A stretch of DNA of 50,431 nucleotides from an uncultured Candidatus Nemicrothrix sp. (GTDB lineage: Bacteria > Actinomycetota > Acidimicrobiia > Acidimicrobiales > Aldehydirespiratoraceae). Both the position numbers and the translations under genes were made by a program. The notes beneath the pieces were generated by a model. It was not told the origin of the DNA. It saw only the letters and a list, made by a program, of their open reading frames with translations, and did not search any database. Shown piece after piece: positions 14,323-31,682 of this stretch; positions within the stretch are counted from its first letter, which is position 1; each line of letters opens with the position of its first letter. The stretch lies in NCBI GenBank assembly GCA_964513285.1, contig CAZEML010000005.1, positions 1 through 50,431 of the forward strand, written 5' to 3'.

Positions 14323-14328
14323 ACCGTC

Positions 14329-14359: not shown

Positions 14360-14457
14360 CCCATGCTCAGATCGGGCCACGCCGGGGCCGCTTCGGCGGG
14401 GCCCCCTCCATGCTCTAGAGTCCAGCCGAGCAAGTGCCGTCCCGGGGAGGACATCCA

Positions 14458-14649
14458 ATGAAGATCGTGGTCGATTTCGATCTCTGCGAGAGCAACGCCA
14501 TCTGCATGCAGATCGCGCCCGACGTGTTCGAGGTCCGCGACGATGACTTCCTGTACGTCCTCAACGAGAACCCCGACGACAGCGATCGTGAGCGCATGGA
14601 AGAGTGCGTCCAGCGCTGCCCCAAGCAGGCCATCTCGATCGAGGACTGA
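14458..14649 (+). CDS. Ferredoxin ([3Fe-4S] P450-partner type)
   Basis: CESNAIC...CP motif; GGGGAGG SD. Confidence 0.92.
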   Translation: MKIVVDFDLCESNAICMQIAPDVFEVRDDDFLYVLNENPDDSDRERMEECVQRCPKQAISIED

Positions 14650-14658
14650 TCGGGCCGC

Positions 14659-15861: not shown

Positions 15862-15863
15862 CA

Positions 15864-16502: not shown

Positions 16503-16633
16503 ACCGCCAGTTCGTCTGGCTCAACGAGTCTGAGTAATTCGGCTCATTTCGCTCCAGCGCCCTAGTACGCCCTGCGGTCGCTTCGCTACTACTGGCGTCC
16601 ACGGCGACCGTGAGAGGGACGGAGCGGGACACG

Positions 16634-17224
16634 ATGACCGACACCGAGCACCGGCTGAGGGGCCACCGGCATGCCGACCTGGCGACCGCGCCCGATCGAG
16701 ATTTGCTCGCCGCGTGTCGCGCCGGCGATGCGCACGCGTGGGAGCTGCTGGTCGCCCGGTATGAACGACTCGCGTTCCACATCGCCCGGCGTGAAGGGCT
16801 TGATGTGGACGCCGCCTCCGACGTGGTGCAGACCACGTTCTCGGCGCTGCTCAGCAGCCTTGATCGGCTGGAGGACTCCGATCGGGTCGGGGCGTGGCTG
16901 GCGACGGTCGCCCGCCGACAATCGTGGCGCGTGCGCGAACGAGGTCGCCGAGAAGCGCCGATCATCGACGACGAGACGCAACTCGATGTCGCGGTCAACG
17001 ACCCCGCGATCGAGCAACCGATGTGGGTCTACCAAGCGGTGCAGCAGCTCGGCGAGCCCTGTCGCACCCTGGTCACGGCCCTCTTCTTCGATCCGGCCGA
17101 ACCCAGCTACGAGGACATCGCCTCTCGACTGGGGCGTCCGGTGGGGAGCATCGGGCCGGTGCGGGCACGGTGCCTCGGCCGCTTGAGGACGCTCCTCGCG
17201 TCCGACATGGAGGGTGTGGCATGA
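16634..17224 (+). CDS. ECF-type RNA polymerase sigma-70 factor
   Basis: Region 2 (GDAHAWELLVARY, DVVQTTF, AWLATVARR) and region 4 (SYEDIASRLGRPVGSIGPVRARCL); alternative GTG start 16610. Confidence 0.93.
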   Translation: MTDTEHRLRGHRHADLATAPDRDLLAACRAGDAHAWELLVARYERLAFHIARREGLDVDAASDVVQTTFSALLSSLDRLEDSDRVGAWLATVARRQSWRVRERGRREAPIIDDETQLDVAVNDPAIEQPMWVYQAVQQLGEPCRTLVTALFFDPAEPSYEDIASRLGRPVGSIGPVRARCLGRLRTLLASDMEGVA

Positions 17225-17628
17225 GCGAATCGAACGGGCGCAACGAGCGACTCGGTCGACGACTCGGTCAGGCCGAGGCCGACGCGATGTTGCGTGAGCT
17301 TCCGCCCTCGCTGCTCCCGACCGTCGATGCCCTCCTCGACGCTGGAGACGCGCTCCCGCTGGCTGAGGAGCCGCCGCCATCGTTGCGACACGAGCTCCGG
17401 AAGATCTTCGCCGAGCATCACCGGTCCGGAGTCGACGACATCGCGTCGAGTCTGATCGACTCGTATGTCGTTCGCGAGCCGGACTACGACAGCCGGCGAG
17501 CGGCGGCTCTGGCCGGAGTTCGCGGTCTGGCCGCGGGGACGACGCTCACCTACGGCCTCCCCGATGGAGAGGTCGTGAGCGTCGCGGCGGCCCATCATCG
17601 TTTCCGTCTCGACCTGGCGGTCCGGTGA
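17221..17628 (+). CDS. Small soluble protein, candidate anti-sigma/protease substrate
   Basis: ATGA-coupled to sigma and overlapping the CHAT gene start; EPPPSLR and YDS-x6-AGVRG motifs; no TM segment. Confidence 0.65.
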   Translation: MSESNGRNERLGRRLGQAEADAMLRELPPSLLPTVDALLDAGDALPLAEEPPPSLRHELRKIFAEHHRSGVDDIASSLIDSYVVREPDYDSRRAAALAGVRGLAAGTTLTYGLPDGEVVSVAAAHHRFRLDLAVR

Positions 17629-20273
17629 TGTCGGTCGCCAGTGACGACCTGGCGGTGGTCGTCGGCGCGGCGTCGACCGGGTCCGATGACGTCCTCGCCG
17701 CCGCGGTCGAAGCCTCGCTCGCGGCGGCTCCGGTCGAGCTGGGTGCCGCTGATGAGCACCACCGTCGAGTCCGGCGGGCACTCGTTGACGCCGGCCGATT
17801 CGGCCCGATCCCGGACCTCGACTACCGCCACGCACGCGTGTTGGTTCAGCTGGGCGATCTCGAGGGTGCGATCGAGCGGATCGATGCCGCCGCGGCTGGC
17901 TTTCGGTCCGCCGGGCGGTCCTTCGACGCCCTCCGGACCGGTCTTGGCCGGATCCACGCCCTCGGTGACTGCGGTCGGCATCGAGAAGGAATCGAGACCG
18001 GGCAGGCCGCGTTGGCCGAGATCACCCGCCTGATCGACACGGGCGCACTCGATCCTGACGACGAGAGCGTTCAGCGGACACGCGCAGCGTTCGACGAGAA
18101 CACCGCCACGGCGTTGGGCTACCTCGGCCGTCACGCCGAAGCCTCGACTCGTCTCGAAGCCGCGAGCGAGGCCTATGGCCGGCTGGGACTCGACGACGAC
18201 GCCAATCGGGCGCAGGCGATCCTGGGCATCGAACTCATGAACGCGGGGCGGCTCGCCGAGGCGGACCGAACGCTCTTGGTGGTTCAGAGCCGCTTCGATG
18301 CGCGCGGCGACGCATTCGAGGTCGCCAAGTGCCAGAGCCGTCGAGGGACGATCGCGCTGCGAGCTGGGCGCTGGGACGATGCCCTCTCGCTCCTGCAGAA
18401 GGCGGCGACGACCATGACGCGCCTCGACGCCGGTCCAGAGCGGGTCCGGGCCCTCGCCGCCCGCGCCTTCGTCCATCTCAGCCTCGGGCTCGTCGAGGAG
18501 GCGATCGCCGGCTACACGGTGGTGGCCGAGTCGAGCGGAACGATGGGTCTGGACACCGAGCTCGCCCACGCGTCGTTCGGACTCGGCATCGCGCTCGGCC
18601 GTCAGCAGCGGCGAGATGAGGGCAGCCGCGCGCTGGGACGGGCGATCGCGCTGTTCGAGAGCGTCGGGGATCAACCGATGGTCGCGCGCTGCCTTCTGGC
18701 CTTGAGCGACGTCGACGACGACCCGATCGAGCACGCCCTCGCCGCCCTCGACCTGCTCGACCCCGAGGAACGGCCCGCCGATGCCGCCTTCGCCCACCTT
18801 CGGGTTGCGGGTCTGGGACACGATGTCGAGTCTCACCTGCGAGCGGCCGAAGATCTGGCCGCCCCGCTGGGGTCGCCGCATCTGGATTGGCGGGTGGCAT
18901 TCGCGCTCGCATCGCATGCCCACGATCAGGGGCGTTCTGCTGACGCGTTCGCCCACGCCCAGGTCGCCGTCGACATCGTCGACGGCATCCGGTCGTCGGC
19001 CCCCTCCGAACTGCTGCGTGACTCGATCGCCGGCGACCGGCGAGCGCCAGCCGTGCTGCTCGCGACCCTGTGCGAGCAGCTGGGTGACTTCGCCCGCGCT
19101 GCGGAGATCGCCGACCAGGCGAGACCGCTGCACCGCCATGCGCCCCCGATGCCGCGAACGACGCGACCGCATCGCCTCGACGACCTCTATACCGACCTCC
19201 TGCGGCTCCCGGCGATGGCCACGGAGCAGGTCCGCGAGGAGATTCGTGGCCTCGAGCAGCGGGATGCGAGCGCGACCGACGTCGGCACCGGCAGCGACCA
19301 GACCGTGGTGGTGTTCCAGCGGAGCCTCGAGGGCTTCGTCGGTCTGCTCCGACGTGCCGGGACATGGTCGCGCTTTGCGCTGACGGCAACCGATGGCGAC
19401 GTCGACCGGGCGGTCGGCGATCTCGCCGCGCACTGGCGCCGCATGGTGGTTCCGGGCCTCGCTGACCGGCACGGGGACGAATTGCAGCTGCTCAGTGTCG
19501 AAGCGATCCGGCAGGTGGAGAAGCTGCTGTGGGCCCCGATCGCTGATCGACTTGCGCAGGCCGAGCCGGTGGTGGTCGTCGCCGATGGGATCCTCGCCGG
19601 CGTTCCGTTCCACGCATTCGCAGCGAACCGGGACCGGGTGCTGTCCGTCGCCCCTTCGGTTGGGCTGGCGGACTCGCTCGCACATCGTCGTCCGGCCTCG
19701 GGCGTTGTCGTCTTCGGTGTGCCGGACATGCAGGCACCGGCGGTCGGGGAAGAGGCGCGTCGAGTCGCTGCTGTCCACGATGGCGCGGTGCTCCGGATCG
19801 GCAACGATGCGAGCCATGAGGCTTTGGTCGCTGCCTTGCCGTCGGCGGGGATTGTGCACCTGGCTGCCCACGGTCTTCACCGCCCCGACAACCCCCGGTA
19901 CTCCGCGATCCGCCTGGGAGATCTGTGGCTGACTGCGACCCGTGCCGAGGCGCTGCGTCTCGACGGCCAGATCGTCATCCTGAGCGCGTGCGATGTGGGC
20001 ATCGATGCCGTCGCCCACGAGGCCTCGCCGATCGGTGGACTTCCTCGTGCGTTCCTCGCTGCCGGTGCCTCTGCGGTGATCGCAGCGGCGTGGCCGGTCG
20101 ACGACCAGATCACCTTGGAGTTCATGGTGCACCTGCACGAGGCATTGCGTGCCGGCGAGTCGTCTGCGGAAGCGGTCCGTCGAGCCCGATCGATGGTCGC
20201 TCTCCGCCACCCCCATCCGTTTCATTGGGCCGCGTTTCACCATGTGGGCGCCGGCCAACCCGAAGGAGCATGA
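17625..20273 (+). CDS. TPR-repeat + CHAT (caspase-like, clan CD) protease
   Basis: Helical TPR-like N-terminus; CHAT motifs LAGVPFHA, VHLAAHG (His), ILSACDVG (Cys), GLPRAFLAAGA, WPVDD, HPFHWAAF. Confidence 0.92.
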   Translation: MMSVASDDLAVVVGAASTGSDDVLAAAVEASLAAAPVELGAADEHHRRVRRALVDAGRFGPIPDLDYRHARVLVQLGDLEGAIERIDAAAAGFRSAGRSFDALRTGLGRIHALGDCGRHREGIETGQAALAEITRLIDTGALDPDDESVQRTRAAFDENTATALGYLGRHAEASTRLEAASEAYGRLGLDDDANRAQAILGIELMNAGRLAEADRTLLVVQSRFDARGDAFEVAKCQSRRGTIALRAGRWDDALSLLQKAATTMTRLDAGPERVRALAARAFVHLSLGLVEEAIAGYTVVAESSGTMGLDTELAHASFGLGIALGRQQRRDEGSRALGRAIALFESVGDQPMVARCLLALSDVDDDPIEHALAALDLLDPEERPADAAFAHLRVAGLGHDVESHLRAAEDLAAPLGSPHLDWRVAFALASHAHDQGRSADAFAHAQVAVDIVDGIRSSAPSELLRDSIAGDRRAPAVLLATLCEQLGDFARAAEIADQARPLHRHAPPMPRTTRPHRLDDLYTDLLRLPAMATEQVREEIRGLEQRDASATDVGTGSDQTVVVFQRSLEGFVGLLRRAGTWSRFALTATDGDVDRAVGDLAAHWRRMVVPGLADRHGDELQLLSVEAIRQVEKLLWAPIADRLAQAEPVVVVADGILAGVPFHAFAANRDRVLSVAPSVGLADSLAHRRPASGVVVFGVPDMQAPAVGEEARRVAAVHDGAVLRIGNDASHEALVAALPSAGIVHLAAHGLHRPDNPRYSAIRLGDLWLTATRAEALRLDGQIVILSACDVGIDAVAHEASPIGGLPRAFLAAGASAVIAAAWPVDDQITLEFMVHLHEALRAGESSAEAVRRARSMVALRHPHPFHWAAFHHVGAGQPEGA

Positions 20274-21457
20274 TGCGCCGAATTGTTTCTGTTCTGCTCG
20301 CTGCGATGGTCATGACCGTCGCGCTGGCGAATCCCGCCGCAGCGAAGAAGAGCGACGAGCCCGAGATGCTGGTGATCCGTGTCACCAGCGGCGAAGTGGA
20401 GGATCTCGCCGACGAGCACGACTTCGCGGTGGTCGACACGCTGATCGCAAGCCGCGGTGTGTACGTGATCGAGGTCGTCGATCCTGGGAAGAAGTTCGAG
20501 AAGGATCTCGAGAAGGATCGCCGAGTCGCGTGGGTGGAGGACTACGAGGTTGAGCGGGCCGGCGACGACCACTGGTACGCCTGGCCGGCCACCGAAGTCG
20601 TCGGTGCCGCCGAAGCCGACCTCGGCGGCTGGAGCGAAGCCTTGCGTCTCGACGAGATCCATCAGTCGACGACCGGCGACGGTGTCGTGGTCGCGGTGAT
20701 CGACACCGGGCTGGATGTCTCTCACCCCCATTTCGAGGGACGGGCCAGGGCCGGCTGGGATCTGGTCGACGACGACGCCGACGTCTCCGAGAGCCGGAAC
20801 GGCGTCGACGACGACGGCGACGGTGTCGCGGACGAAGCGTTCGGACATGGCACCCACGTCGCCGGCGTGATCCACATCCTCGCCCCCGACGCAGAGATCG
20901 TCGGCTACCGAGCGCTGAACGACGACGGCGAAGGCGATGTCACGCTCATCGCCGAGGCGATCAACATGGCCGTCGAGGACGGTGCGGACGTGATCAACCT
21001 GAGTTTCGGCACCGCCACGAAGCCGAAGTCGAAGCTCCTGAAAGAGGCGCTCAAGGACGCCAAGTCCGAGGGCGTGACGGTCGTGGCCGCCGCTGGCAAC
21101 GACGGCGGCAGCGCCAAGCGGTACCCCGCTGCGGAGAAGGACGTGGTGTCGGTCGGGGCGTTCAACCACGGCGGATCTGGATCAGCGACCTTCAGCTCGC
21201 GGGGGAAGTGGGTTGACGTCTCCGCCCCCGGCGTCGATGTGACCAGCGCGCTACCGGGAGGTGGCTATGGCACCTGGAGCGGTACGTCGATGGCGGCACC
21301 GGTCGTGACCGGGCAGGCCGCGCTCTTGTACCAGCTCGATCCCGACCCTAAGCCGAGTGACGTACGCAAGTGGATCCGAGACAGCGCGGACAAGGACGGC
21401 GGCGACACCGACAAGGGTCGGATCAACATCTTCGACAGCCTCCGCAAGGCCAGATAG
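20270..21457 (+). CDS. Secreted S8 (subtilisin-like) serine peptidase
   Basis: Signal peptide ending NPAAA; triad VIDTG / HGTHVAG / GTSMAAP; oxyanion AAAGN; AAGGAG SD; ATGA overlap with CHAT stop. Confidence 0.93.
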   Translation: MMRRIVSVLLAAMVMTVALANPAAAKKSDEPEMLVIRVTSGEVEDLADEHDFAVVDTLIASRGVYVIEVVDPGKKFEKDLEKDRRVAWVEDYEVERAGDDHWYAWPATEVVGAAEADLGGWSEALRLDEIHQSTTGDGVVVAVIDTGLDVSHPHFEGRARAGWDLVDDDADVSESRNGVDDDGDGVADEAFGHGTHVAGVIHILAPDAEIVGYRALNDDGEGDVTLIAEAINMAVEDGADVINLSFGTATKPKSKLLKEALKDAKSEGVTVVAAAGNDGGSAKRYPAAEKDVVSVGAFNHGGSGSATFSSRGKWVDVSAPGVDVTSALPGGGYGTWSGTSMAAPVVTGQAALLYQLDPDPKPSDVRKWIRDSADKDGGDTDKGRINIFDSLRKAR

Positions 21458-21495
21458 CGGGACGGCCCGGACGGGCCCACATCGAGATCAACCAG

Positions 21496-21536
21496 CAGCG
21501 ACGGTCGGGTGATGATCCGGCCGTCGCTGTATTTCT
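21496..21536 (+). terminator. Intrinsic terminator after the sigma-CHAT-S8 operon
   Basis: 15-bp stem CAGCGACGGTCGGGT/ATCCGGCCGTCGCTG (2 G-U pairs), loop GATG, followed by TATTTCT. Confidence 0.65.
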
Positions 21537-21558
21537 GCGGTGCGTTTCGGGCACTGGT
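21528..21558 (+). promoter_or_regulatory. Putative ECF-sigma promoter copy 2: TGTATTTC-N15-GCACTGGT
   Basis: Upstream of the giant glycan-assembly gene; favours the GTG start at 21600 over 21540. Confidence 0.7.
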
Positions 21559-21599
21559 TCGTTGGCGTGCGAGGGACGGACGCCGGAACGGACCCGGTC

Positions 21600-24500
21600 G
21601 TGGAAACCCTCACCTCCAAAGCGACTCCACTGGAGGCGACCGTCGCCCCCCAGCCGAGCGCGTTCAGCCGGTACCGGGGTTGGCGCCTCGTCGTGAAGCG
21701 GTCCGGCGATCGTGTCGTTGCCGCAGGAATCCTCTTGCTCCTCGCGCCGCTGCTCCTCGTCATTGGGGTGGCGGTGCGAGTGACCTCTCCCGGCCCGAGC
21801 CTGTTCCGCCAATACCGGGTCGGCCGCGGGGGTGAGCTGTTCGTCATCTACAAGTTCCGCACGATGCGGAGCGACGCCGAGTCGTGGCTCGCCGCTCAAC
21901 CCGACCTCGCCCAGCAGCACCGAGACAACGACTTCAAGCTGGCGATCGAGGACGACGTTCGCATCACGCCACTCGGCCGGTTCTTGCGGCGCACGTCCTT
22001 GGACGAGCTGCCCCAACTCGTCAACGTCCTGCGCGGGGAGATGAGCCTCGTCGGACCCAGGCCGGTCGTGCCCGATGAGGCGGCCCGCTACGAGCAGTAC
22101 CTCCCGTCCTACTACGCGGCGTACCCCGGCTTGACCGGGCTCTGGCAGGTATCGGGCCACGAGGCGGTCGGCTACCCCGAGCGGGCGCGCCTCGACGCCG
22201 ACTATGTGGAGAGCTGGAGTCTTCGCCAAGACTTCTCGATCGCGGCGCGGACCGTCCCGGAGATGATCCGCAGCCGTCGAGCCCCACGACCAACCCTCAT
22301 CGACCTGCGGTCGGCCCCGTCGGTGTCGCTGGTGGTCTCGACGATCGGTCGCCCGGCGGAGCTGACCCGACTGCTGGCATCGGTTGAGCGCGAGGCGGAG
22401 CTCGTCCAGCTCGAGGTGATCGTCGTGGACCAGAGCGACGGCGCCGCAACCGCCGATGTCGTCGACTGCTTTCGCGACAGCCTCCTGATTCGCCACGTGC
22501 CGTGTGAGCGAACGGGCGTGTCGCTGGGCCGCAACCGTGGCCTCGCCGAGGCGCGCGGACGCTATGTGATGTTCCCCGACGATGACGCCTGGCTATCGGG
22601 CACGACCCTGCAGCGAGCGGTGACGTTCTTGGAGGCCAACTTCGACGTTGACGGGTACTCGGCTCGGCTCGCCGACGAGCGCGGTGCGAACAGCATGTTG
22701 CGGTGGCGACGGCGCGCCCAGTGGGTCACCCGTCGCAACCATCATCAGACCTCGATCGGTTCGGCGCTCATCGTGCGTCGCTCGGCGGCTCACCGAGTCG
22801 CGGGGTTCGACGAGCAGATGGGTCCGGGCGCCGGCACCTGGTACGGGTCGTGTGAAGATGCGGACTTCCTCCTGAAGGTCGTCGGGCGGGGTCGCGTCTG
22901 GTACGACCCGCTCGCCGTCGTCCATCATCGAGACGACCGGTCCGATGAGGGCGATCATGCGGTGGCCAAGTCGTTCGCCTACGGCTGTGGGCAGGGCCGC
23001 CTGTGGCGTCGGCACCTTCCCCTTCCATGGGCGCTCCTCCTGCTCGCTCGCCGACTGGGAAGTTCGGTCGTCGCTGACCTGCGCGTGAGCCCCGGGGTGG
23101 GGCGGGTTCGTCGGGCGTGGGTTCGAGGCGCAGCCAACGGTCTCCTCGCCCGGCCACCCCTCGACATCGAGTTGGACGGACGCGTCGCTGCGCCGACACC
23201 AGCCCGAGAGTCGGCGCCGACGACCGGTGAGTTCGGCACGTCGTTTCGGTGGCGCCTGTTGCTGTCGGCGGCCGGTGTCACCGCGAGCTTCTCGCTGACC
23301 GTGTTCGCGGCACGAACCTTCGGGGCTGCCGAGCTGTCGGCGTTCTACGTGTTGGTGTCAGCACTGGCGATCGGGCCCGTCCTCGGCCGCTTCGGCTACG
23401 GAACCCACATCGTCCAGCGGCTCGGCGAGCTACGCGCAACCGCGGACTTCGACGTCGCCGTCGCGGCGGGACGCGCCGCGGTGCGCTCGACGTTCCTTCC
23501 CTCGGTCGGGGGCGCGGTTGTGCTCTCGAGTGTGCTGCTCGGGACCGTTCCTGGTGGTCGCTCGGCACCGGTCCTCGCCTGCGCCGCGGCGGTGGTCGCC
23601 GCGGAGTCGGTGCGAATGACGTATTCGGACGTGTTTCTCGGGCTCGGGCTCCCTCGGTGGAGCGCAGGCCTCGCCCATCAACTCCGAGCGGTCGTCGTCG
23701 TGGCCTCGGTGGGTGCTCTGGCCGCGGTCGGTGTGGCCTTCGACCTCCTCACAGTGCTCGCGGTGATGGTCGGCTGTGGCCTGCTGTTCGTCGGGATCGG
23801 CGCGGTCCGTCTGACCGCGCTCCAGGCAGAACGAGGCGCTCATACGGCAGAGGAGCGGCCGCTGCGGGCGCTGGTGTCGATCGGCGTCCCGTTCATGGTC
23901 GTCGACCTCGTCGCCCTCGCCGTCGCTCGCGGCGACGTGTGGATCTCATCGCTGGTGTTCGGGGAGGACGATGCGTCGCTGTACGGCACCGCGTCGATCC
24001 TGGCGATGCAGCTCGCCATCCCGGTGGGGCTCGCGAATGTCGCGCTCGCCCCGGTCGCCGCTGGCTACCTGAGCCAACGACGCACGGCCGAGCTCGAACG
24101 GCTCGTGCGGCGCCTCGTCACCGGACTCACGATCTTCGCGGTGCTCTCTCTGGTCGTCGTGGTCGCCGCTGGGTCCATCGGACTTCGCGTCGCGTTCGGC
24201 GAGCGTTTCGCCGACGCCCAACTCGAACTGATCATCCTGACGATCGGGAACCTCGGGCTGGTGGTGTTCGGCATGAGTCCGGTGGTGTTGGTGATGGCGG
24301 GGCGTCAGCGGCTGGCCATGCGGTTGTCGGCCGCCTGGCTCGGGTCTGCGGTGCCCTCGATGGTGGTGGCTGCCCTGCTCGCGGGCCGGGTTGGTCTCGC
24401 GATCGCATCGGCGACCGCGACGATCGGACTCGTGCTCGTGCTCGCTGTGGCCACATGGGTCACCACCGGGGTGGTCGTCACGCCGTACCTCTGGACCCGT

Positions 24501-25925
24501 CGGCGCCGGGGCGTCCGCCGCCGAGAGGACGTCCAGCGGTCCGTGCGCCGGTCGACGGTGGCGCGGGCACCCCGTTCGGTGTGGTGGTTGTGGCCGGCCG
24601 CGCCGCTCGTGCTCGTGACGATCCCGACCCTGGTGCTGTCAGGAGTGATCGATGAGGCGACCTTCGTCTCCGCGTGGCGCACGCCGAAGGCGATGGATCT
24701 CTCGACGTTCACGACCCTGCTCGGTGGGGCCCTCGCGCTGTTGGTCGGCATGTCGGCCCGCGCGCTCGTCCGGCGCACCCCCGCTCAGATTCCGCCGAGC
24801 CGGTTCGTGGCCTCGATTCCGACCCGCCGGCTCGAAGCGGCGTTCCAGCTGCTCGTCGCGGCGACCATGCTCGGGTACGCCGCGTGGATCAGCAACGGTG
24901 TGGTCAACGCTGGCCTCCGACTCTCCGATGTCGTCGACTTGCTCGCGACCCAGGACAACTCCGGCCTGGCACTGAAGGCCAAACTTCCGACGATCGCCGG
25001 GGTCACGACACTCACCCAGTTGGCGATCGCCGCGGTCATCATCGGTGTCGTCATCGACCTTCGTCGACCGACCCGTTGGGTACGTGTGACCTACCGACTC
25101 GTGATCGCTCTGGCTCTCGTACGTTCGTTCATGCTGGCCGAACGCCTCGCCGCGATCGAACTCCTCGTACCACTTGTCACCTTGCGGGTCGTCGCCGCAT
25201 TCATTCGGGGCAATCGAGAGCAACGGCTCGGTGTCGCGCTGGCTCCGGCGTTCGCCGCGATCCTGCTGGTGACGGCCTTCGTCGGGTCCGAGGCGAGCCG
25301 CAGCTGGAACTTCTATCGGGACCAACGCGAGCAGTCGCTCGTGGCGTTCGGGACCGAGCGGCTCCTCGGCTACTACGTGACCGCCCACAACAACGGGGCG
25401 ATCCTGCTCGACGAGGACACCCCGTCGACCGGCGTGCCGTTTGAGACCATCGCGTTCTTCTGGGAGGCGCCGCTCGACCCATTCGGGCCCGGGACGCCCG
25501 TACCCTTCGACGGGCCGGCGGTGGTCGCGGAAGCGGTCGACCATCGCAGCGAGGCACTCGGGCGGTCAGGCAATCCCGAGTTCAACAGTCCGAGCGGACT
25601 GGCCGCTCCGTTCGTGGACTTCGGCGTCGTGGGCGGCCTCGCGTTCTTCCTCGCCGCCGGCTTGGTGATCGGTGCGCTGCACACCGGCCTACTCCAGGGC
25701 ACCAGCTGGGGAGTCTTCTTCTACCCGGTGATGTTCGTCGGGCTGCTCGAGCTCCCGCGGTACCAGTACTGGGCGCAGGGCCGTTCGACGCCGGCGTTGG
25801 TCGCGCTGGCGCTCGTCGCGGTCGTCGGCAGTCGACTCGACCGCCTCACCGCGACGCCGCCGCTGGTCGCGGACGTGCCCTACTTCGCCGACTGGGGTCG
25901 CCGCCTGGGTGAGGAGGCCACATGA
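21600..25925 (+). CDS. Multidomain polysaccharide assembly protein: priming phosphoglycosyl transferase + GT2 + Wzx-like flippase + Wzy-like polymerase
   Basis: PGT KFRTM, DVRITPLGRFLRRTSLDELPQLVNVLRGEMSLVGPRP (~21680-22270); GT2 VVSTIGR, VVDQS, FPDDD (~22320-23150); multi-TM flippase-like (~23230-24500); Wzy-like ERLLGYY, NPEFN, FVDFG (~24580-25900); no internal stop. Confidence 0.8.
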   Translation: METLTSKATPLEATVAPQPSAFSRYRGWRLVVKRSGDRVVAAGILLLLAPLLLVIGVAVRVTSPGPSLFRQYRVGRGGELFVIYKFRTMRSDAESWLAAQPDLAQQHRDNDFKLAIEDDVRITPLGRFLRRTSLDELPQLVNVLRGEMSLVGPRPVVPDEAARYEQYLPSYYAAYPGLTGLWQVSGHEAVGYPERARLDADYVESWSLRQDFSIAARTVPEMIRSRRAPRPTLIDLRSAPSVSLVVSTIGRPAELTRLLASVEREAELVQLEVIVVDQSDGAATADVVDCFRDSLLIRHVPCERTGVSLGRNRGLAEARGRYVMFPDDDAWLSGTTLQRAVTFLEANFDVDGYSARLADERGANSMLRWRRRAQWVTRRNHHQTSIGSALIVRRSAAHRVAGFDEQMGPGAGTWYGSCEDADFLLKVVGRGRVWYDPLAVVHHRDDRSDEGDHAVAKSFAYGCGQGRLWRRHLPLPWALLLLARRLGSSVVADLRVSPGVGRVRRAWVRGAANGLLARPPLDIELDGRVAAPTPARESAPTTGEFGTSFRWRLLLSAAGVTASFSLTVFAARTFGAAELSAFYVLVSALAIGPVLGRFGYGTHIVQRLGELRATADFDVAVAAGRAAVRSTFLPSVGGAVVLSSVLLGTVPGGRSAPVLACAAAVVAAESVRMTYSDVFLGLGLPRWSAGLAHQLRAVVVVASVGALAAVGVAFDLLTVLAVMVGCGLLFVGIGAVRLTALQAERGAHTAEERPLRALVSIGVPFMVVDLVALAVARGDVWISSLVFGEDDASLYGTASILAMQLAIPVGLANVALAPVAAGYLSQRRTAELERLVRRLVTGLTIFAVLSLVVVVAAGSIGLRVAFGERFADAQLELIILTIGNLGLVVFGMSPVVLVMAGRQRLAMRLSAAWLGSAVPSMVVAALLAGRVGLAIASATATIGLVLVLAVATWVTTGVVVTPYLWTRRRRGVRRREDVQRSVRRSTVARAPRSVWWLWPAAPLVLVTIPTLVLSGVIDEATFVSAWRTPKAMDLSTFTTLLGGALALLVGMSARALVRRTPAQIPPSRFVASIPTRRLEAAFQLLVAATMLGYAAWISNGVVNAGLRLSDVVDLLATQDNSGLALKAKLPTIAGVTTLTQLAIAAVIIGVVIDLRRPTRWVRVTYRLVIALALVRSFMLAERLAAIELLVPLVTLRVVAAFIRGNREQRLGVALAPAFAAILLVTAFVGSEASRSWNFYRDQREQSLVAFGTERLLGYYVTAHNNGAILLDEDTPSTGVPFETIAFFWEAPLDPFGPGTPVPFDGPAVVAEAVDHRSEALGRSGNPEFNSPSGLAAPFVDFGVVGGLAFFLAAGLVIGALHTGLLQGTSWGVFFYPVMFVGLLELPRYQYWAQGRSTPALVALALVAVVGSRLDRLTATPPLVADVPYFADWGRRLGEEAT

Positions 25926-28318
25926 CTGGACGGTCGCGCTGGCTCGTCCTGGCGACCCACGTGCCGAGCGATGGCGCCGGCGGTGGGATGGCTCGCCAGA
26001 CCGTCGAGCTGATCCGGGCTCTCCGCGCCCGTCCGGATCTCGACGTCTCGGTCCGTTGCCGACGCGACGCGGTGGGGTTTTTCGTCGACGAGGTCGGGCT
26101 GGCCGCGGACCGGGTGGTGGTCGGACGTGGGGGCGTCCTTCGGCGCTCGTTGGTCGAGTGGTTGGGTCGCCCGCGGCTTGCGGATGGCTCGGCGCCGGAT
26201 GTCGTCGTGGGCCCCAAGCACCTGGTGCCGCGACGGACACGTGCGCTCACCGTTCTGGTCGTCCACGACTTCCTCCCGCTGGATCGGCCCGACGATTTCG
26301 GGTGGGTCAAACGGCGCCTGCTTCCGCTGCCCTACCTCGACTCGATTCGGCGCGCTGACGTGGTCGCGTGTGTGAGCGAGGCCACCGAGGAGCGCCTCCA
26401 GACTCACACCGGCAGGCGTCGGCGTGTCGTCGTGGCGCCGAACGCGCTGTCGACCTCCCTGTCGACCGCACCGCCGCGGCCGGTCGACGGGCTGGAGGGT
26501 GGCCGGTTCGCGCTCGTCGTCGGTGACCCGTCACCGCGGAAGAATCTGCCGTTCGTGTTCGAGGTCTGGGAGCGGGTGCAGCGAGCCGTCCCGGACCTCC
26601 GGCTCGTGCGCGTGGGGCCGCCGGGATGGGGACTCGACGAGTCGTCGGCGGCTCGTGATCGTCTGCTGGCCCGAGGCGGTCTCGTCGAACTCGGACATGT
26701 GTCTGATGGGCAGCTCAGGTGGCTGTATGAACACGCGGCGATGACCCTCTGCCCGAGTCTGCTGGAGGGCTTCGGGCTGCCGGTCCTCGAGGCGATGGCG
26801 TTCAGCAGCCCAGTGCTCTTGTCGCCCGACCCTGCACAGGTCGAGGTCGCTGCCGGTCGCGGCACCGTCGTGCCGTTGGAGGTCGACGCCTGGGTAGCTG
26901 CAGTGAAGGCGACGGCCACACGACGCCGCTCGCCGTCGGCGGTCCTCGGTACCGCGCCTCGTTGGACCTGGAACGACACCGCCGATGCGCTCTGCGTCGC
27001 GACCCGCCCCTCGGGGCGGCAGGACCCACCGCTCGTCCTGCACGTCGCCCAACCCGTGAGCGAGGGGGTCGCCCACTGTGTCGTGGAGACCGCTCGCTGG
27101 CAGGCCGACCACGGCATCCGCCCCGTGGTGGCCTGCCCGGCTCCGTCGGCGCTCGCCTCGGAACTCGAGTCGGCCGGGATCGACGTGGTGCCGTGGAAGG
27201 CCACCCGCGCTCCGGGGCCGGCGACGGTCGGGGAGACCGTCCGACTCGCGCGGGCGGTGCGGCGGATCCAGCCGGATCTCATCCACTTGCACTCGTCGAA
27301 GGCCGGGGTCGCGGGGCGGCTCGCGGTGCGGGGGCGGAGGCCGACGGTCTTCCAACCCCATGGATGGTCATTCCTCGCGGTGACGGGTCTGCCGCACCGA
27401 CTCGCGAGGCGTTGGGAGGCAGCGGCCGCTCGGTGGACCGATGCGGCGGTGAGTGTCAGCGATGGCGAGCAGCGCCTCGCGGAACGCGCCGGAATCGACT
27501 TGCCCGAGCACGTGGTCATCCCGAACACGATCGAGGTGCCACCCCGTGTCGGATCGGCGGCCGGCTCACGACTCCGGGCAGAGCTCGGTCTCGGCGCTGC
27601 TCCGGTCGTGGTCTGCGTCGGACGGCTCTCCGAGCAGAAGGGCCAAGACCTCCTCGTGGCTGCGTGGCCCGCCGTCTTGGCGGCGGTTCCGGCCGCTCGA
27701 CTCGTGCTCGTCGGTGAGGGGCCGGCTCGCGATGCCCTGCAGACCAACGCACCTCGCAGCGTGCACGTGATCGGGAACCGTGACGACGTCGCGGAGCTTC
27801 TCGAGATCGCCGACGTCGTCGCGATGCCGTCGCGCTGGGAAGGCATGTCGATCGCGATGCTGGAGGCGATGGCCGCCGGCCGGTCGGTGGTCGCCGCCGA
27901 CGTGCCCGGTGTCGGCGAGACGATCACGGCTCACGCGGGCGCGGTCGTCGCTGTGGACGATGGCCCCGGTCTGGCTCGCGCCCTGATCGCCCGCCTCGTC
28001 GACCCGGTCCGCGCCGCCATGGAGGGACGACAGGGTAGACGTCTCGTGATCGACCGACATCGACCACAACAGGCCCAGGCCACGCTGCTCGACACCTATC
28101 GGCGTGTGGTGCCCGACTGGGACGCCAACGGGTGGCCGATCCCGGACCCTGCGCCGGAGCAGACGATCGGCGAAGGCGACGACGATCTCGGACTCGACGA
28201 TGTCCTCGATGCGGCGATCATCGACCTTCGCGAAGCGCAGCGTCGAGGCGGTGCCGCAGATCGGCGCGGATCGTGGCCGCGTCGAAGCGGTCCTCGAGGA
28301 GTCGATGCCCGTGGGTGA
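25922..28318 (+). CDS. Double GT4 (GT-B) glycosyltransferase fusion
   Basis: Two E-x7-E motifs: PSLLEGFGLPVLEAM and PSRWEGMSIAMLEAM; PRKN, HSSKAG, GRLSEQKG; GAGGAGG SD. Confidence 0.88.
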   Translation: MTGRSRWLVLATHVPSDGAGGGMARQTVELIRALRARPDLDVSVRCRRDAVGFFVDEVGLAADRVVVGRGGVLRRSLVEWLGRPRLADGSAPDVVVGPKHLVPRRTRALTVLVVHDFLPLDRPDDFGWVKRRLLPLPYLDSIRRADVVACVSEATEERLQTHTGRRRRVVVAPNALSTSLSTAPPRPVDGLEGGRFALVVGDPSPRKNLPFVFEVWERVQRAVPDLRLVRVGPPGWGLDESSAARDRLLARGGLVELGHVSDGQLRWLYEHAAMTLCPSLLEGFGLPVLEAMAFSSPVLLSPDPAQVEVAAGRGTVVPLEVDAWVAAVKATATRRRSPSAVLGTAPRWTWNDTADALCVATRPSGRQDPPLVLHVAQPVSEGVAHCVVETARWQADHGIRPVVACPAPSALASELESAGIDVVPWKATRAPGPATVGETVRLARAVRRIQPDLIHLHSSKAGVAGRLAVRGRRPTVFQPHGWSFLAVTGLPHRLARRWEAAAARWTDAAVSVSDGEQRLAERAGIDLPEHVVIPNTIEVPPRVGSAAGSRLRAELGLGAAPVVVCVGRLSEQKGQDLLVAAWPAVLAAVPAARLVLVGEGPARDALQTNAPRSVHVIGNRDDVAELLEIADVVAMPSRWEGMSIAMLEAMAAGRSVVAADVPGVGETITAHAGAVVAVDDGPGLARALIARLVDPVRAAMEGRQGRRLVIDRHRPQQAQATLLDTYRRVVPDWDANGWPIPDPAPEQTIGEGDDDLGLDDVLDAAIIDLREAQRRGGAADRRGSWPRRSGPRGVDARG

Positions 28319-29432
28319 TCAACCTCGAGCGCAGCTCGTCGTCGGTGAAGAGTCGATCGACCGCGTCCGCGAACTGACCTGGCTCATCTGCGAGGAGGAG
28401 CTCGCGCCCATGCGCCGCACCCAGTCCCGCAGCGCCGAGCGTCGTCGACACCGTCGCGACGCCGTGCGCGAACGCTTCCAGGATCTTGATCCGCGTCCCG
28501 CCTCCCCAGTGGATCGGAACGACGGCGACGGACGCCCGCTGAAGTTCGGGGGTCAGGTCGTTGATTCGGCCCAGGACCTCCACCCCCTCGGTCTCGTGTG
28601 CGGGGTGGGCGTCGTCGAGACCGCCCCCGACGACCCGAAGAACCGCCTCGGGATGACGGGACCGGACGCTCGGCCAGACCGCCTCGACGAGCCAGCCGAG
28701 GCCCTCGTGGTTCGGTCCGTAGCTCAGCGACCCGACGAAGAGCACACGAAAGGGCTCAGGAGGAGGCGCCTCGCCAGCCGCTGGAGATGCGGCGTAGCCG
28801 TTCGGCACGAACCAACCGTTGCCGAGCGAGGCGGCCTCGTGCTCGCTCGGCAGCGAGATGACGTCGACCTTACGATCGGCCTGCGCTTCGAGCGCGCGCC
28901 AGCGTCCGACATCGCGCCGAGCGATCAGCCGGCGGACCCACCCAAGGTCGGTGGCTCCCTCGACGCGACTGCGCAGTTTCTCGCTCTCGAGATCGGTGTC
29001 GATCAGCTCCACTCGGGCGTGAATCCCTCCGCGGCGCGCGGCCTCGTAGGAATCGATTCCCATCGCGATCAAGAGATCGAACGAGCCGGCCGCCTCCCGG
29101 ATCGCGTGATCGGCATCGGACCAGTCGGCCGCGGCCAGAGCCCACGGCAACGAGGTTCGGGCCCAGCGCGACGCGGTCGACCAGGGCTTCCGCGTCGGAA
29201 CGGTGACCGTCGTGACATCCACACCGGCCGACTCGGCGAATCCGGTGTCGGCTTCATGGGGCCCGCGGGGTGCGGCGATCCACCGCACCCGGCCGAGCGA
29301 CGCCGCGACCTGAACCAGCTCGGCGGTACGCCGGCGATACCCCGATGTTGGCGGCCAGCCGACCTCATCGGACACGACCACGATCGACCATTCACCGGCC
29401 GCGTTCGGTCCGGTCTCGAGCGGCGTCCCCAC
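28218..29432 (-). CDS. GT4-family glycosyltransferase
   Basis: WPPTSG, FVGSLSYGPN, GGGTRIKILEAFAHG, STTLGAAGL; TACGAT -10-like hexamer 6 nt before GTG. Confidence 0.87.
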   Translation of the reverse strand: MGTPLETGPNAAGEWSIVVVSDEVGWPPTSGYRRRTAELVQVAASLGRVRWIAAPRGPHEADTGFAESAGVDVTTVTVPTRKPWSTASRWARTSLPWALAAADWSDADHAIREAAGSFDLLIAMGIDSYEAARRGGIHARVELIDTDLESEKLRSRVEGATDLGWVRRLIARRDVGRWRALEAQADRKVDVISLPSEHEAASLGNGWFVPNGYAASPAAGEAPPPEPFRVLFVGSLSYGPNHEGLGWLVEAVWPSVRSRHPEAVLRVVGGGLDDAHPAHETEGVEVLGRINDLTPELQRASVAVVPIHWGGGTRIKILEAFAHGVATVSTTLGAAGLGAAHGRELLLADEPGQFADAVDRLFTDDELRSRLITHGHRLLEDRFDAATIRADLRHRLDAALREGR

Positions 29433-29458
29433 GGCGCCATCGTAGGAGGAACCACCGC

Positions 29459-30313: not shown

Positions 30314-30353
30314 CGCCGGGACGCGGCGATCAAGCGAGCCCGGGGGACCGCAC

Positions 30354-31655: not shown

Positions 31656-31682
31656 GGGCCCGCCGGGCCGCCGTCGCTTCCC

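What the first reader, a model, noticed from the sequence alone, without database searches (positions are those of the whole stretch)
16634..21457. ECF sigma / small partner / TPR-CHAT caspase-like protease / secreted subtilase: candidate protease-gated switch for surface-glycan synthesis
Seen: four genes joined by 4-nt start/stop overlaps; the CHAT His (HLAAHG, ~19869) and Cys (LSACD, ~19989) are intact; the S8 triad is intact. Established: TPR-CHAT proteins are coupled to ECF sigmas in type III-E CRISPR (Csx29/Csx30/CASP-sigma) and in Myxococcus DdvA/DdvS. Here there is no CRISPR, and the apparent output is a polysaccharide island carrying a shared promoter motif. Inference: TPR sensing activates CHAT, which cleaves the small protein, freeing sigma to switch on capsule/EPS (e.g. 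for phage or predator shielding, or biofilm). I know of no described link between this module and glycan loci, but cannot check novelty.
Basis: partly seen in the sequence, partly recalled or inferred. Interest (0 to 1): 0.87.

Follow-up and report, generated by a model that had tools for sequence, protein, structure and literature searches.

The report
CHAT-protease sigma switch beside glycan island
A four-gene cassette (stress-type sigma factor, small partner protein, caspase-like protease, secreted protease) is real and recurs in two bacterial phyla; its small protein looks like the sigma factor's missing inhibitor, and a role in controlling the neighbouring sugar-coat genes is possible but unproven.

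Summary
Four genes (16634-21457) are joined by ATGA/GTGA overlaps: an ECF sigma, a 135-aa protein, a cytoplasmic TPR-CHAT protease with His749/Cys789 intact, and a signal-peptide S8 subtilase with an intact triad.

The gene set is not new. A 2022 review notes a conserved carboxypeptidase/subtilase/CHAT context for sigma group ECF54, which is said to lack an anti-sigma.

New here:
- The small protein belongs to a large unnamed family (1,527 cluster representatives).
- It lies directly downstream of the sigma in 38 of 38 CHAT-anchored loci.
- The whole cassette is collinear in 11 of 11 loci anchored on the small protein (Actinomycetota, Chloroflexota).
- It is predicted to clamp sigma regions 2 and 4 like an anti-sigma (score 0.72, best control 0.02).
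- It carries one invariant Arg in an exposed "GVRG" loop, a plausible CHAT cleavage site by analogy with Csx29/Csx30.
- The window's copy has an in-frame 62-residue deletion of its beta-domain.

The glycan link is circumstantial. Cassette and island form one 22.9-kb insertion relative to the closest congener, and one other cassette (L089) precedes a polysaccharide cluster. Against it: most cassettes do not, a strong hairpin separates S8 from the island, and no shared promoter motif was found.

The parts
16503..16633 (+). Non-coding leader upstream of the sigma gene. It is the left end of the window-specific insertion and presumably holds the cassette promoter, which was not identified.
   Evidence: congener homology ends at about 16505. 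No sigma-70-like promoter was found, and no conserved motif across orthologous leaders.
16634..17224 (+). ECF-type sigma factor, 196 aa (P0001)
   Evidence: Sigma70_r2 2.7e-9; TIGR02937 55.2 bits against cutoff 42.9. 1,166 homologs at E<=1e-10. Cys143 nearly invariant and Cys180 invariant in 38 module sigmas.
17221..17628 (+). Small partner protein, 135 aa (P0002): a predicted soluble anti-sigma and a truncated member of an unnamed family of about 205 aa
   Evidence: No Pfam/NCBIfam hit. Family profile: 1,527 representatives at E<=1e-3. 90% identical to the 197-aa P0231 but missing its residues 120-181. Complex with sigma: score 0.72 against control 0.02.
17257..17421 (+). Predicted sigma-binding helices of the small protein (residues 13-67)
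   Evidence: Interface residues: small-protein residues 34-41 touch sigma region 4 (132-136, 147-151, 181-184), and residues 55-63 touch region 2 (36, 40, 62-69).
17515..17526 (+). GVRG motif (residues 99-102). Arg101 is the only invariant residue of the family; proposed CHAT cleavage or recognition loop.
   Evidence: Alignment A3, 83 sequences. In the AF2 model of P0068 the equivalent loop is the only low-confidence stretch (block pLDDT 63). It lies outside the predicted sigma interface. The cleavage role is inference.
17577..17578 (+). Junction of the in-frame 62-residue deletion that removes the core of the C-terminal beta-sandwich
   Evidence: BLASTP of P0002 against P0231: residues 1-119 align at 90%, then 118-134 align to P0231 180-196.
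17625..20273 (+). Cytoplasmic TPR-CHAT protease, 882 aa (P0003): TPR solenoid about residues 40-500, CHAT domain 627-875, His749 (nt 19869), Cys789 (nt 19989)
   Evidence: Pfam CHAT 3.1e-44 and TPR_12. No TM or signal sequence. AF2 pLDDT 82.4. Foldseek: Csx29 8eey_B 3.4e-14, DdvA 8rw5 1.6e-13, separase 9hma 3.9e-13.
20270..21457 (+). Secreted S8 subtilase, 395 aa: signal peptide about residues 1-25, Asp145/His193/Ser340, no C-terminal anchor
   Evidence: Peptidase_S8 1.6e-51. The mycosin model TIGR03921 scores 177 bits, below its cutoff of 278.75. The hydrophobic N-terminus has KD19 2.05. Signal-like N-termini in 13 of 13 other cassette S8s.
21495..21530 (+). 16-bp perfect hairpin followed by UAUUUCU, about 9 nt before the first glycan gene: a terminator or attenuator at the cassette end
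   Evidence: RNA fold of 21455-21545: -47.8 kcal/mol, z -3.9, 0 of 200 shuffles fold as well. Also the only terminator-like site in 15800-22500, though the scan expects 1.7 by chance.
21540..39284 (.). Polysaccharide island of the ABC-transporter-dependent type: Bac_transf+GT2 fusion (21540-25925), double GT4 (25922-28318), GT1 (28218-29432, -), two unassigned ORFs, GT2 (31683-32558, -), GT2 (32555-35245, -), GT4 (35286-36545, -), Wzt with Wzt_C (within 36350-38656, -), methyltransferase (38472-39284)
   Evidence: Pfam. It lies inside the same window-specific insertion as the cassette. Regulation by the cassette is not shown.

Best explanation
This is a standalone, CRISPR-independent member of the class 'ECF sigma controlled by a TPR-CHAT protease', and its gene set matches what the literature notes for sigma group ECF54.

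Proposed working:
1. The small protein holds the sigma inactive by clamping its regions 2 and 4 with N-terminal helices (predicted).
2. An unknown intracellular cue, read by the TPR solenoid, activates the CHAT His-Cys dyad (inferred).
3. CHAT cuts the small protein in its exposed loop after the invariant Arg of GVRG. The sigma-bound fragment is then degraded and the sigma is released (inferred, by analogy with Csx29/Csx30/CASP-sigma).
4. The free sigma transcribes at least its own operon, so the exported S8 subtilase is an output and not a regulator of the cytoplasmic trio (inferred from topology).

In this genome the cassette arrived in the same 22.9-kb insertion as a polysaccharide island, so read-through or sigma-dependent expression of that island is possible but unproven. 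The window's small protein has lost most of its beta-domain, so the switch here may be altered: uncleavable, or constitutively unstable.
For: Gene order and coupling:
- 4-nt overlaps at all three junctions.
- In 48 CHAT-anchored loci from the same order, a sigma homolog occurs in 40, S8 in 30 and both in 25.
- A small-family gene lies directly downstream of the sigma, on the same strand, in 38 of 38 sigma loci after two HMM iterations.
- Anchoring on the small protein instead gives 11 of 11 loci with sigma, small, full-length CHAT and S8 in the window's order: 5 Actinomycetota and 6 Chloroflexota.

Anti-sigma reading:
- ESMFold2 complex of P0001 with P0002: score 0.72 (runs 0.74/0.72/0.70), best of 3 controls 0.02, partner pLDDT 59, runs agree in at least 70% of contacts. 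The mark was reached by 58 of 80 solved complexes and 2 of 110 mismatched pairs. The interface covers sigma residues 28-74 and 125-188.
- AF2 of the canonical member P0068 (pLDDT 91.4) shows four N-terminal helices plus a beta-sandwich.
- The top Foldseek hit is the ChrR anti-sigma, but at E 0.023.
- zf-HC2 appears weakly on 5 of 83 members and on 11% of a related Atlas cluster.

Protease:
- CHAT dyad intact and conserved. Fold matches Csx29, DdvA and separase.

Cleavage loop:
- Arg101 is the sole invariant residue in 83 sequences. It sits in the only low-confidence loop of the model.
- Csx30 is likewise cut in a flexible loop of its C-terminal domain while its N-terminal domain binds the sigma (PMC10028731, passages).
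- Metacaspases cut after Arg/Lys (preprint 10.1101/2023.06.23.546230, passage).

S8 exported.
Literature context: PMC8999054 passages.
Against: - No experiment exists for any member of this cassette.
- Sigma/anti-sigma complexes are solved, so the complex score may reflect likeness and not binding by this copy.
- P0002 and its close relative P0231 lack the family's nearly invariant N-terminal Asp, Trp, Arg, Trp and Phe.
- Many members in this order (150-170 aa) lack the first helices altogether, so the anti-sigma domain is not canonical. No zinc ligands are conserved.
- Structural matches to anti-sigma factors are not significant.
- CHAT binding to, or cleavage of, the small protein was not tested; the single complex job went to sigma:small.
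- Csx29 does not cut after Arg, so the Arg argument rests on other clan members.
- The 62-residue deletion may make this copy non-functional.
- ECF54 membership could not be tested by model, and the ECF classification paper stresses a 4Fe-4S neighbour for ECF54, not CHAT.
- The HMM iteration used the same small ORF set, so it could drift, although E-values were 1e-21 to 1e-45 for all but one locus (L082, 7.6e-07).
Confidence: 0.5

Rival explanations
1. One reading: the cassette is a switch whose output is the adjacent polysaccharide island (capsule or EPS switched on when CHAT frees the sigma).
For: - Relative to congener G015, the window-specific insertion (about 16506-39431) holds exactly the cassette plus the island.
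- In 14 of 15 congeners the flanking ferredoxin reductase and PNPase genes are 0.6-4.3 kb apart, against 27 kb here.
- The first glycan gene is co-oriented and starts 82 nt after S8, leaving little room for a promoter of its own.
- L089 has the cassette followed on the same strand by Bac_transf, Acetyltransf_6, Wzy_C, GT4 and a Polysacc_synt flippase. L098 has a GT2 next to S8. L049 has a GT2 one gene further on.
- That makes 4 of 14 collinear cassettes with readable downstream sequence.
Against: - 10 of those 14 cassettes are followed by other genes: GGDEF-EAL, alpha/beta hydrolase, ABC exporters, HAD/SBP, M6 or S8 peptidases, surface-repeat proteins and an unassigned opposite-strand ORF.
- Only 2 of 48 CHAT-anchored loci had any GT-like tblastn hit within about 9 kb.
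- A 16-bp hairpin with a U-rich tail sits between S8 and the island.
- No shared promoter motif was found.
- Much of the island is on the opposite strand, so it needs other promoters.
- G000 has six Bac_transf matches, so glycan loci are common in this genome.
- The nearest partial relative of the island's first gene (G028:C189) is on a different contig from that genome's CHAT hits.
- No control was run for the base rate of GT adjacency.
Confidence: 0.3
2. Direct proteolytic control without an anti-sigma, as proposed in the literature for ECF54: CHAT and/or S8 act on the sigma itself, and the small protein is an accessory (adaptor, chaperone or ligand-binding module) and not an inhibitor.
For: - The review states that ECF54 has no anti-sigma and that proteases may control it (PMC8999054). 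The classification paper likewise finds no regulator (PMC7826278).
- Short family members lack the first helices.
- Anti-sigma fold matches are not significant.
- The universally conserved part is a CarboxypepD_reg-like beta-sandwich (24 of 83 members, best E 3.2e-8).
Against: - Strict sigma-to-small adjacency and translational coupling (38 of 38) is the classic sigma/anti-sigma layout.
- The complex prediction puts the small protein between regions 2 and 4 (0.72 against 0.02).
- S8 is exported in 14 of 14 cassettes (window; 13 others), so it cannot reach a cytoplasmic sigma.
Confidence: 0.15
3. A conflict or defence module (a Craspase-like abortive or alarm system without CRISPR) in which CHAT senses an invader and the sigma drives a protective or suicidal programme, with S8 as effector.
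For: - The closest solved relatives of the protease are defence proteins: Csx29 and DdvA (PMC11506125 passages).
- The cassette is accessory: the small protein was found in 0 of 40 relatives, and the CHAT protein in 7 of 40.
- It spans two phyla, consistent with horizontal spread.
Against: - PADLOC shows no system membership; only a weak BovA match to CHAT (2.1e-5) and a generic subtilase model.
- No defence-family hit appeared among the neighbours I scanned.
- No mobile-element hallmarks at the insertion junctions: repeats of 11 nt or less, no tRNA.
- S8 carries a secretion signal, which is unlike an intracellular suicide effector.
Confidence: 0.12
4. In this particular genome the switch is decaying: the 62-residue deletion has disabled the small protein, and the cassette is a non-functional remnant.
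For: - The deletion removes five of about eight sandwich strands.
- In Csx30, C-terminal truncation abolishes cleavage (PMC10028731).
- No full-length paralog was found in the 81%-complete assembly.
Against: - The deletion is in frame and keeps both overlaps.
- The sigma, the CHAT dyad and the S8 triad are intact.
- The short form's 90% cluster holds 3 sequences on 8 contigs, so it is not a one-off assembly error.
- The sigma-binding region and GVRG are retained.
Confidence: 0.2

Closest known systems
ECF54-type sigma neighbourhood (actinobacterial ECF group; Huang et al. 2015, Casas-Pastor et al. 2021, as summarised in review PMC8999054)
   Same: An ECF sigma with conserved neighbours carrying CHAT, subtilase and 'carboxypeptidase' domains. 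The last item fits the CarboxypepD_reg-like sandwich of the small protein. Proteolytic regulation has been proposed but not tested.
   Different: The group is described as lacking an anti-sigma. Here the 'carboxypeptidase' protein is always the gene after the sigma and is predicted to bind it. The cassette also occurs in Chloroflexota. I could not run the group's own model, could not read Huang 2015 (not held), and supplements were closed.
Type III-E Craspase: Cas7-11 / Csx29 (TPR-CHAT) / Csx30 / Csx31 / CASP-sigma
   Same: A TPR-CHAT protease of the same fold (8eey_B, E 3.4e-14) next to an ECF-like sigma. The partner's N-terminal part binds the sigma, and its C-terminal domain carries a flexible loop.
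   Different: No Cas7-11, crRNA or CRISPR array, so the activating signal cannot be target RNA. The small protein (about 205 aa, helices plus Ig-like sandwich) shows no detected similarity to Csx30. No Csx31. An exported S8 protease is added.
DdvA/DdvS of Myxococcus xanthus
   Same: An ECF sigma controlled by a protein with a TPR-CHAT module (8rw5, E 1.6e-13, TMq 0.49). CHAT-triggered release of the sigma is proposed (PMC11506125).
   Different: DdvA is one transmembrane polypeptide: a zinc anti-sigma domain, a TM helix and a periplasmic TPR-CHAT with an incomplete active site. Here the anti-sigma candidate and the protease are separate soluble proteins with no TM segment and no zinc ligands. 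The paper reports DdvA-like fusions only in Myxococcota and one Comamonas species.
ChrR-type soluble anti-sigma factors (N-terminal anti-sigma domain plus C-terminal beta-domain)
   Same: A two-domain layout of helical sigma binder plus beta-domain, encoded after the sigma gene. ChrR is the top Foldseek hit.
   Different: The match is not significant (E 0.023). ChrR's domain is zinc-bound and its beta-domain is a cupin, not an Ig-like sandwich. No protease partner is known for ChrR (recalled, not checked).

Membership tests
ECF (group 4) sigma-70 family | Sigma regions 2 and 4 only, about 200 aa | tested here: met
   Sigma70_r2 2.7e-9; TIGR02937 matches residues 34-187 at 55.2 bits against cutoff 42.9.
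ECF54 group | Score above threshold with the group's own HMM, or placement in the ECF tree | not testable with these tools
   No ECF-group models are on hand. 1,166 homologs carry no group labels.
ECF54 group | Conserved genetic context of CHAT, subtilase and 'carboxypeptidase' domain proteins | tested here: met
   Window. Among 48 CHAT-anchored loci, S8 occurs in 30 and a sigma homolog in 40. 11 of 11 small-protein-anchored loci carry the full cassette. CarboxypepD_reg on 24 of 83 small proteins. The feature is taken from review passages.
ECF54 group | Neighbouring 4Fe-4S protein (Casas-Pastor 2021 passage) | tested here: inconclusive
   A ferredoxin-like small ORF lies about 2 kb upstream (around 14500-14655). 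It belongs to the conserved flank shared with congeners and was not scanned against Pfam.
TPR-CHAT proteases (separase/Csx29/DdvA architecture) | C-terminal CHAT domain with a His-Cys dyad | tested here: met
   Pfam CHAT 3.1e-44. His749 and Cys789 present. Cys789 invariant in 16 orthologs.
TPR-CHAT proteases (separase/Csx29/DdvA architecture) | N-terminal TPR solenoid and overall fold | tested here: met
   TPR_12 3e-13. AF2 helical repeats over residues 7-546. Foldseek matches to Csx29, DdvA and separase at 1e-13 to 1e-14 over 700-970 columns.
Type III-E Craspase system | Cas7-11 effector and CRISPR array next to the protease | tested here: not met
   No Cas-family hit among the window proteins scanned. 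No regularly spaced repeats in 16000-50431.
DdvA-type anti-sigma | A single polypeptide with a cytoplasmic zinc anti-sigma domain, a TM helix and a periplasmic TPR-CHAT | tested here: not met
   Separate genes. Maximum 19-residue hydropathy is 0.99 (small protein) and 1.83 (a CHAT core strand), and there is no signal peptide.
Class I anti-sigma factors | Encoded next to and co-transcribed with the sigma | tested here: met
   ATGA overlap in the window. Directly downstream on the same strand in 38 of 38 loci and 11 of 11.
Class I anti-sigma factors | Helical domain that binds between sigma regions 2 and 4 | tested here: inconclusive
   The prediction supports it (0.72 against 0.02), and P0068 has four helices. 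However, structural hits are weak (ChrR E 0.023; RsiW Z 5.7, rmsd 8.7), and short members lack helices 1-3.
Class I anti-sigma factors (ZAS subtype) | HxxxCxxC zinc motif | tested here: not met
   No conserved His or Cys among the invariant or near-invariant columns of A3/A4. zf-HC2 appears only weakly, on 5 of 83 members (best E 0.011).
S8 subtilases | Asp-His-Ser triad in the Peptidase_S8 fold | tested here: met
   Peptidase_S8 1.6e-51. Asp145 and Ser340 located by script; His193 in GHGTH by my own count.
T7SS mycosins | Equivalog score and a C-terminal membrane anchor | tested here: not met
   TIGR03921 scores 177.2 bits against cutoff 278.75. The only hydrophobic segment is the N-terminal signal.
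Known anti-phage defence systems (PADLOC) | Match to a system's protein models | tested here: not met
   Only a BovA-like match at 2.1e-5 for CHAT and a generic subtilase model. Nothing for the sigma or the small protein.

The most novel reading that the evidence does not exclude
A widespread, CRISPR-free caspase-type switch. A cytoplasmic TPR-CHAT protease cuts a previously unrecognised soluble anti-sigma (the 'missing' regulator of ECF54-type sigmas) after an invariant Arg, freeing the sigma. In this genome the switch was acquired together with an ABC-transporter-dependent surface-polysaccharide island as one 22.9-kb unit, and it gates that island's expression.
Probability: 0.22. Interest if true: 0.8.

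Novelty: new variant of a known kind. Interest (0 to 1): 0.55.

Why it matters
Protease-gated sigma release by TPR-CHAT enzymes is currently known from two defence contexts only: Craspase and DdvA. This cassette would extend the principle to a free-standing cytoplasmic module. Its small-protein family has 1,527 cluster representatives, and the cassette occurs in at least two phyla.

It would also supply the missing regulator for a sigma group (ECF54) that the ECF classification lists as having none. The proposed mechanism is directly testable: one invariant Arg, one catalytic Cys, and a cultured non-pathogenic host (Nocardioides donggukensis, L092) that carries a full-length cassette.

If the glycan link holds, it would be a new way of switching a cell-surface polysaccharide. 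If it does not, the cassette is still a tidy model for how bacterial caspase relatives signal outside CRISPR.

Tried and rejected
Promoter motif:
- The repeat finder on 16000-50431 gave only coding-composition echoes.
- Dyad counting and Gibbs sampling on 40 sigma-upstream regions locked onto coding sequence.
- An (A/G)TACGC(C/T) element occurs in only 5 of 16 orthologous leaders and was chosen post hoc. It is absent from the S8-glycan spacer.
- Pairwise comparison of the sigma leader with 33 other upstream regions gave nothing above the null.
- The sigma-70 promoter scan found 0 sites.

Relatives of the CHAT protein:
- The search for related loci with P0003 alone found nothing in genome contigs or metagenome contigs.

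Other blanks:
- RNA evidence: no RNA holder listed.
- Defence-system membership: none.
- Mobile-element hallmarks at the insertion junctions: none. The ARAGORN tRNA-Cys at 1323-1413 lies inside the Usp gene and I treat it as a false positive.
- Fold of the small protein's beta-domain: only generic Ig/FN3-like matches, Z 7.4 or less.

Literature:
- Searches found no paper describing this cassette beyond the ECF54 sentence in PMC8999054.
- No held paper contains both 'carboxypeptidase regulatory-like' and 'anti-sigma'.
- Huang et al. 2015 (PMC4518836) is not held. Supplements of Casas-Pastor 2021, which hold the per-group descriptions, were closed and may describe the ECF54 context in more detail than I could see.

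Rows dropped:
- Of the places listed, I fetched 39 plus G390:C231. I left out all places in the three genomes flagged unpublished (G409, G065, G367), the two G345 places, places already fetched, and the lower-ranked rest.
- L048 and L087 are two halves of one cassette split across contigs.
- Among the 16 collinear cassettes, L050 and L097 end at contig edges, so 14 have readable downstream sequence. L095's downstream ORF was not scanned.

Full report
WHAT IS THERE. The window is a 69% GC contig of an 81%-complete assembly. Four genes lie between 16634 and 21457 on the + strand and are joined by 4-nt overlaps: ATGA at 17221, GTGA at 17625 and ATGA at 20270. Their codon-position GC is coding-like.
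- Gene 1 is an ECF sigma (Sigma70_r2; TIGR02937 above its cutoff).
- Gene 2 encodes 135 aa with no Pfam or NCBIfam hit.
- Gene 3 encodes an 882-aa TPR-CHAT protein (CHAT 3.1e-44).
- Gene 4 is an S8 subtilase with an intact triad and a typical signal peptide.

The sigma, the small protein and CHAT have no hydrophobic segment that could span a membrane. Upstream are unrelated metabolic genes (MttB, an AMP-binding enzyme, ferredoxin reductase, YhhN). Downstream is a polysaccharide island with a Bac_transf+GT2 fusion, several GT4/GT2/GT1 genes, a Wzt ABC ATPase and a methyltransferase.

THE CASSETTE RECURS. The small protein was found in none of 40 relatives, and the CHAT protein in 7 of 40. In a sample of the order, 49 of 401 genomes, counting G000 itself, had a CHAT match at E<=1e-10; this tally includes three genomes flagged unpublished.

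I fetched about 9 kb either side of 48 such places. A sigma homolog was present in 40 of 48, an S8 homolog in 30 of 48, and both in 25 of 48, in varying order and orientation. Four places had the window's order: L014 in a congener, L049, L050, and L087 with L048.

The ORFs between sigma and CHAT in those loci share motifs with the window's small protein. A profile of them finds 1,527 cluster representatives at E<=1e-3 and 402 at E<=1e-10, nearly all 200-215 aa. Every named member is called 'hypothetical protein' and none has a Pfam domain.

An HMM of the family hit 27 of the 48 loci at first pass. After two iterations it found a member directly downstream of the sigma, on the same strand, in 38 of 38 sigma loci, plus three more loci. 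The iteration used the same ORF set, which is a caveat, but E-values were 1e-21 to 1e-45 for all but one locus (L082, 7.6e-07).

I then anchored independently on the small protein in the named genome collection. This gave 11 loci, 5 Actinomycetota (one cultured, Nocardioides donggukensis) and 6 Chloroflexota. All 11 carry sigma, small protein, full-length CHAT and S8 in the window's order. The Atlas search adds Acidobacteriota and Zixibacteria as leads. The S8 proteins of 13 of 13 other cassettes also have signal-like N-termini.

WHAT THE SMALL PROTEIN IS. The family consensus (83 sequences) has these parts:
- an N-terminal 'L.DW.EGRL ... V.WLR.F' region;
- a 'PPP.VRQRLR..F' helix;
- a 'FDSR....L.GVRG' stretch;
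- a beta-domain.

The only invariant residue is the Arg of GVRG. AlphaFold2 of a canonical member (P0068, pLDDT 91.4) gives four helices followed by a beta-sandwich. The single low-confidence stretch is the GVRG loop. The sandwich is CarboxypepD_reg-like: 24 of 83 members hit that model, best E 3.2e-8, with NOMO2 as the best weak match among solved-structure sequences. That probably explains the 'carboxypeptidase' item in the literature's ECF54 context.

Anti-sigma leads are weak when taken one at a time. The top Foldseek hit is ChrR at E 0.023, RsiW scores Z 5.7 at rmsd 8.7, zf-HC2 appears on 5 of 83 members, and zf-HC2 is on 11% of one related Atlas cluster.

The complex prediction for the window's own pair is clear. 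The score is 0.72 (three runs 0.74, 0.72, 0.70), the best of three controls is 0.02, partner pLDDT is 59, and the runs agree in at least 70% of contacts. That mark was reached by 58 of 80 solved complexes and 2 of 110 mismatched pairs. Small-protein residues 13-67 lie between sigma region 2 (28-74) and region 4 (125-188). Because sigma/anti-sigma complexes are solved, this shows likeness and does not prove that this copy binds.

Two complications remain. Many members in this order are 150-170 aa and lack the first helices. The window's lineage has also replaced the nearly invariant N-terminal Asp, Trp, Arg, Trp and Phe.

THE WINDOW'S COPY IS DELETED. P0231, a 197-aa protein 90% identical to P0002, shows that P0002 lacks residues 120-181 in frame. 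These form five of about eight sandwich strands. The sigma-binding part and GVRG remain. The short form's 90% cluster holds 3 sequences on 8 contigs, so it is probably a real allele. No full-length paralog was found in the assembly.

THE PROTEASE. A profile of 16 orthologs matches the CHAT domains of solved Csx29 proteins (about 1e-9) and chain 8rot_B, which I take to be DdvA (2.4e-8). The AF2 model (pLDDT 82.4) matches Csx29 (8eey_B, 3.4e-14), DdvA (8rw5, 1.6e-13, TMq 0.49) and separase (9hma, 3.9e-13) over most of its length.

WHAT IS KNOWN.
[quoted passage not shown] It cites Casas-Pastor 2021 and Huang 2015.
- Casas-Pastor 2021 (passages) lists ECF54 as having no regulator, notes a 4Fe-4S neighbour, and places the group next to ECF58. 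Huang 2015 is not held and supplements were closed.
[quoted passage not shown] It is fused, transmembrane and periplasmic (PMC11506125, passages).
- In Craspase, the N-terminal domain of Csx30 binds CASP-sigma. Csx29 cuts a small flexible loop in the C-terminal domain of Csx30, and C-terminal truncation abolishes cleavage (PMC10028731, passages).
- Metacaspases cut after Arg/Lys (preprint 10.1101/2023.06.23.546230, passage).

The small protein here has the same logic as Csx30: a sigma-binding N-terminus and an exposed loop in the C-terminal domain. I therefore propose cleavage after the invariant Arg. This step is inference only.

THE GLYCAN QUESTION. Evidence for a link:
- In 14 of 15 congeners the ferredoxin reductase and PNPase orthologs lie 0.6-4.3 kb apart on one contig. 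In the window they are 27 kb apart.
- Alignment to the closest congener (G015) joins YhhN (window 16505) to the DUF4333 gene (window 39432) within 87 nt. The insertion is therefore about 16506-39431 and holds exactly the cassette plus the island.
- L089 has a full polysaccharide cluster on the same strand after S8. L098 has a GT2 there, and L049 has a GT2 one gene further on.

Evidence against a link:
- The other cassettes are followed by GGDEF-EAL (L014), an alpha/beta hydrolase (L048), ABC exporters (L090, L091), HAD/SBP genes (L092), large secreted peptidases (L093, L094), surface-repeat proteins (L088, L096) or an unassigned opposite-strand ORF (L095).
- Only 2 of 48 CHAT-anchored loci had GT-like hits.
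- The 82-nt spacer folds into a 16-bp hairpin with a U-rich tail (-47.8 kcal/mol, z -3.9, 0 of 200 shuffles).
- No shared motif was found.
- Much of the island is on the other strand.
- No relative has an ortholog of the island's first gene, G000 has six Bac_transf matches, and the one partial relative (G028:C189) is on a different contig from that genome's CHAT hits.
- The junctions show no mobile-element hallmarks.
- I ran no base-rate control for GT adjacency.

A looser pattern is that many downstream genes encode exported or envelope proteins. That is an impression and not a test.

VERDICT. It is supported by prediction and conservation, but the gene set is already noted in the ECF literature.

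The additions from this work are:
- the small protein as the likely missing anti-sigma;
- strict collinearity of the cassette across two phyla;
- the invariant Arg loop;
- the export of S8, which makes it an output and not a regulator;
- the deletion in this copy.

Noticed in passing
window 10700-14440: A second window-specific segment. In congeners G004 and G015 the MttB gene end (window about 10699) is joined within about 60 nt to the ferredoxin/ferredoxin-reductase genes (window about 14440). G003 (L112) also lacks the segment, but there the homology on the left ends at about window 9122. The extra 3.7 kb holds minus-strand genes: an unassigned 391-aa ORF, a SAM methyltransferase and an AMP-binding enzyme.
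   Followed up: partly
window 39878-42325 (-): A second DAO/FAO_M/GCV_T (dimethylglycine-dehydrogenase-like) gene, paralogous to 6696-9122. It is present at this site in congener G015 but absent in G004 and G003, so the stretch next to rpsO-pnp varies within the genus.
   Followed up: partly
L014 (G007:C1, cassette at about 716.9-722.0 kb): In congener G007 a cassette of the same order lies about 7.7 kb beyond the PNPase gene (706.85-709.25 kb). That is the same neighbourhood as in the window but on the other side of pnp, and it is followed by a GGDEF-EAL gene. The pnp region may be a hotspot for this cassette.
   Followed up: partly
window about 50170-50431 (+): The window ends inside what reads like another ECF sigma gene: the printed DNA appears to translate to a region-2-like N-terminus. 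It was not scanned against any library.
   Followed up: no
window about 14500-14655 (+): A short ferredoxin-like ORF (Cys-Pro motif near its end) lies just upstream of the ferredoxin reductase gene. It was noted because the ECF classification paper mentions a 4Fe-4S neighbour for ECF54, but here it belongs to the conserved flank and not to the insertion.
   Followed up: no
sigma proteins of 38 module loci (alignment A2): Two cysteines in sigma region 4 are conserved: Cys180 is invariant within 'R.RC', and Cys143 is nearly invariant. This is unusual for ECF sigmas and could be a redox or metal site.
   Followed up: no
window 5546-5839 (+): A small high-GC3 ORF with hydrophobic stretches and a Cys-rich C-terminus (CxxC ... 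C) lies between the alcohol dehydrogenase and IclR genes. It was seen only in the intergenic print-out.
   Followed up: no
window 1323-1413 (-): ARAGORN calls a tRNA-Cys with anticodon ACA inside the universal-stress-protein gene. It is probably a false positive.
   Followed up: no
L095 (Anaerolineales MAG): Besides the cassette's own S8, four further S8-like matches lie within about 10 kb of the cassette. This local expansion of subtilases was not seen in the other loci.
   Followed up: no
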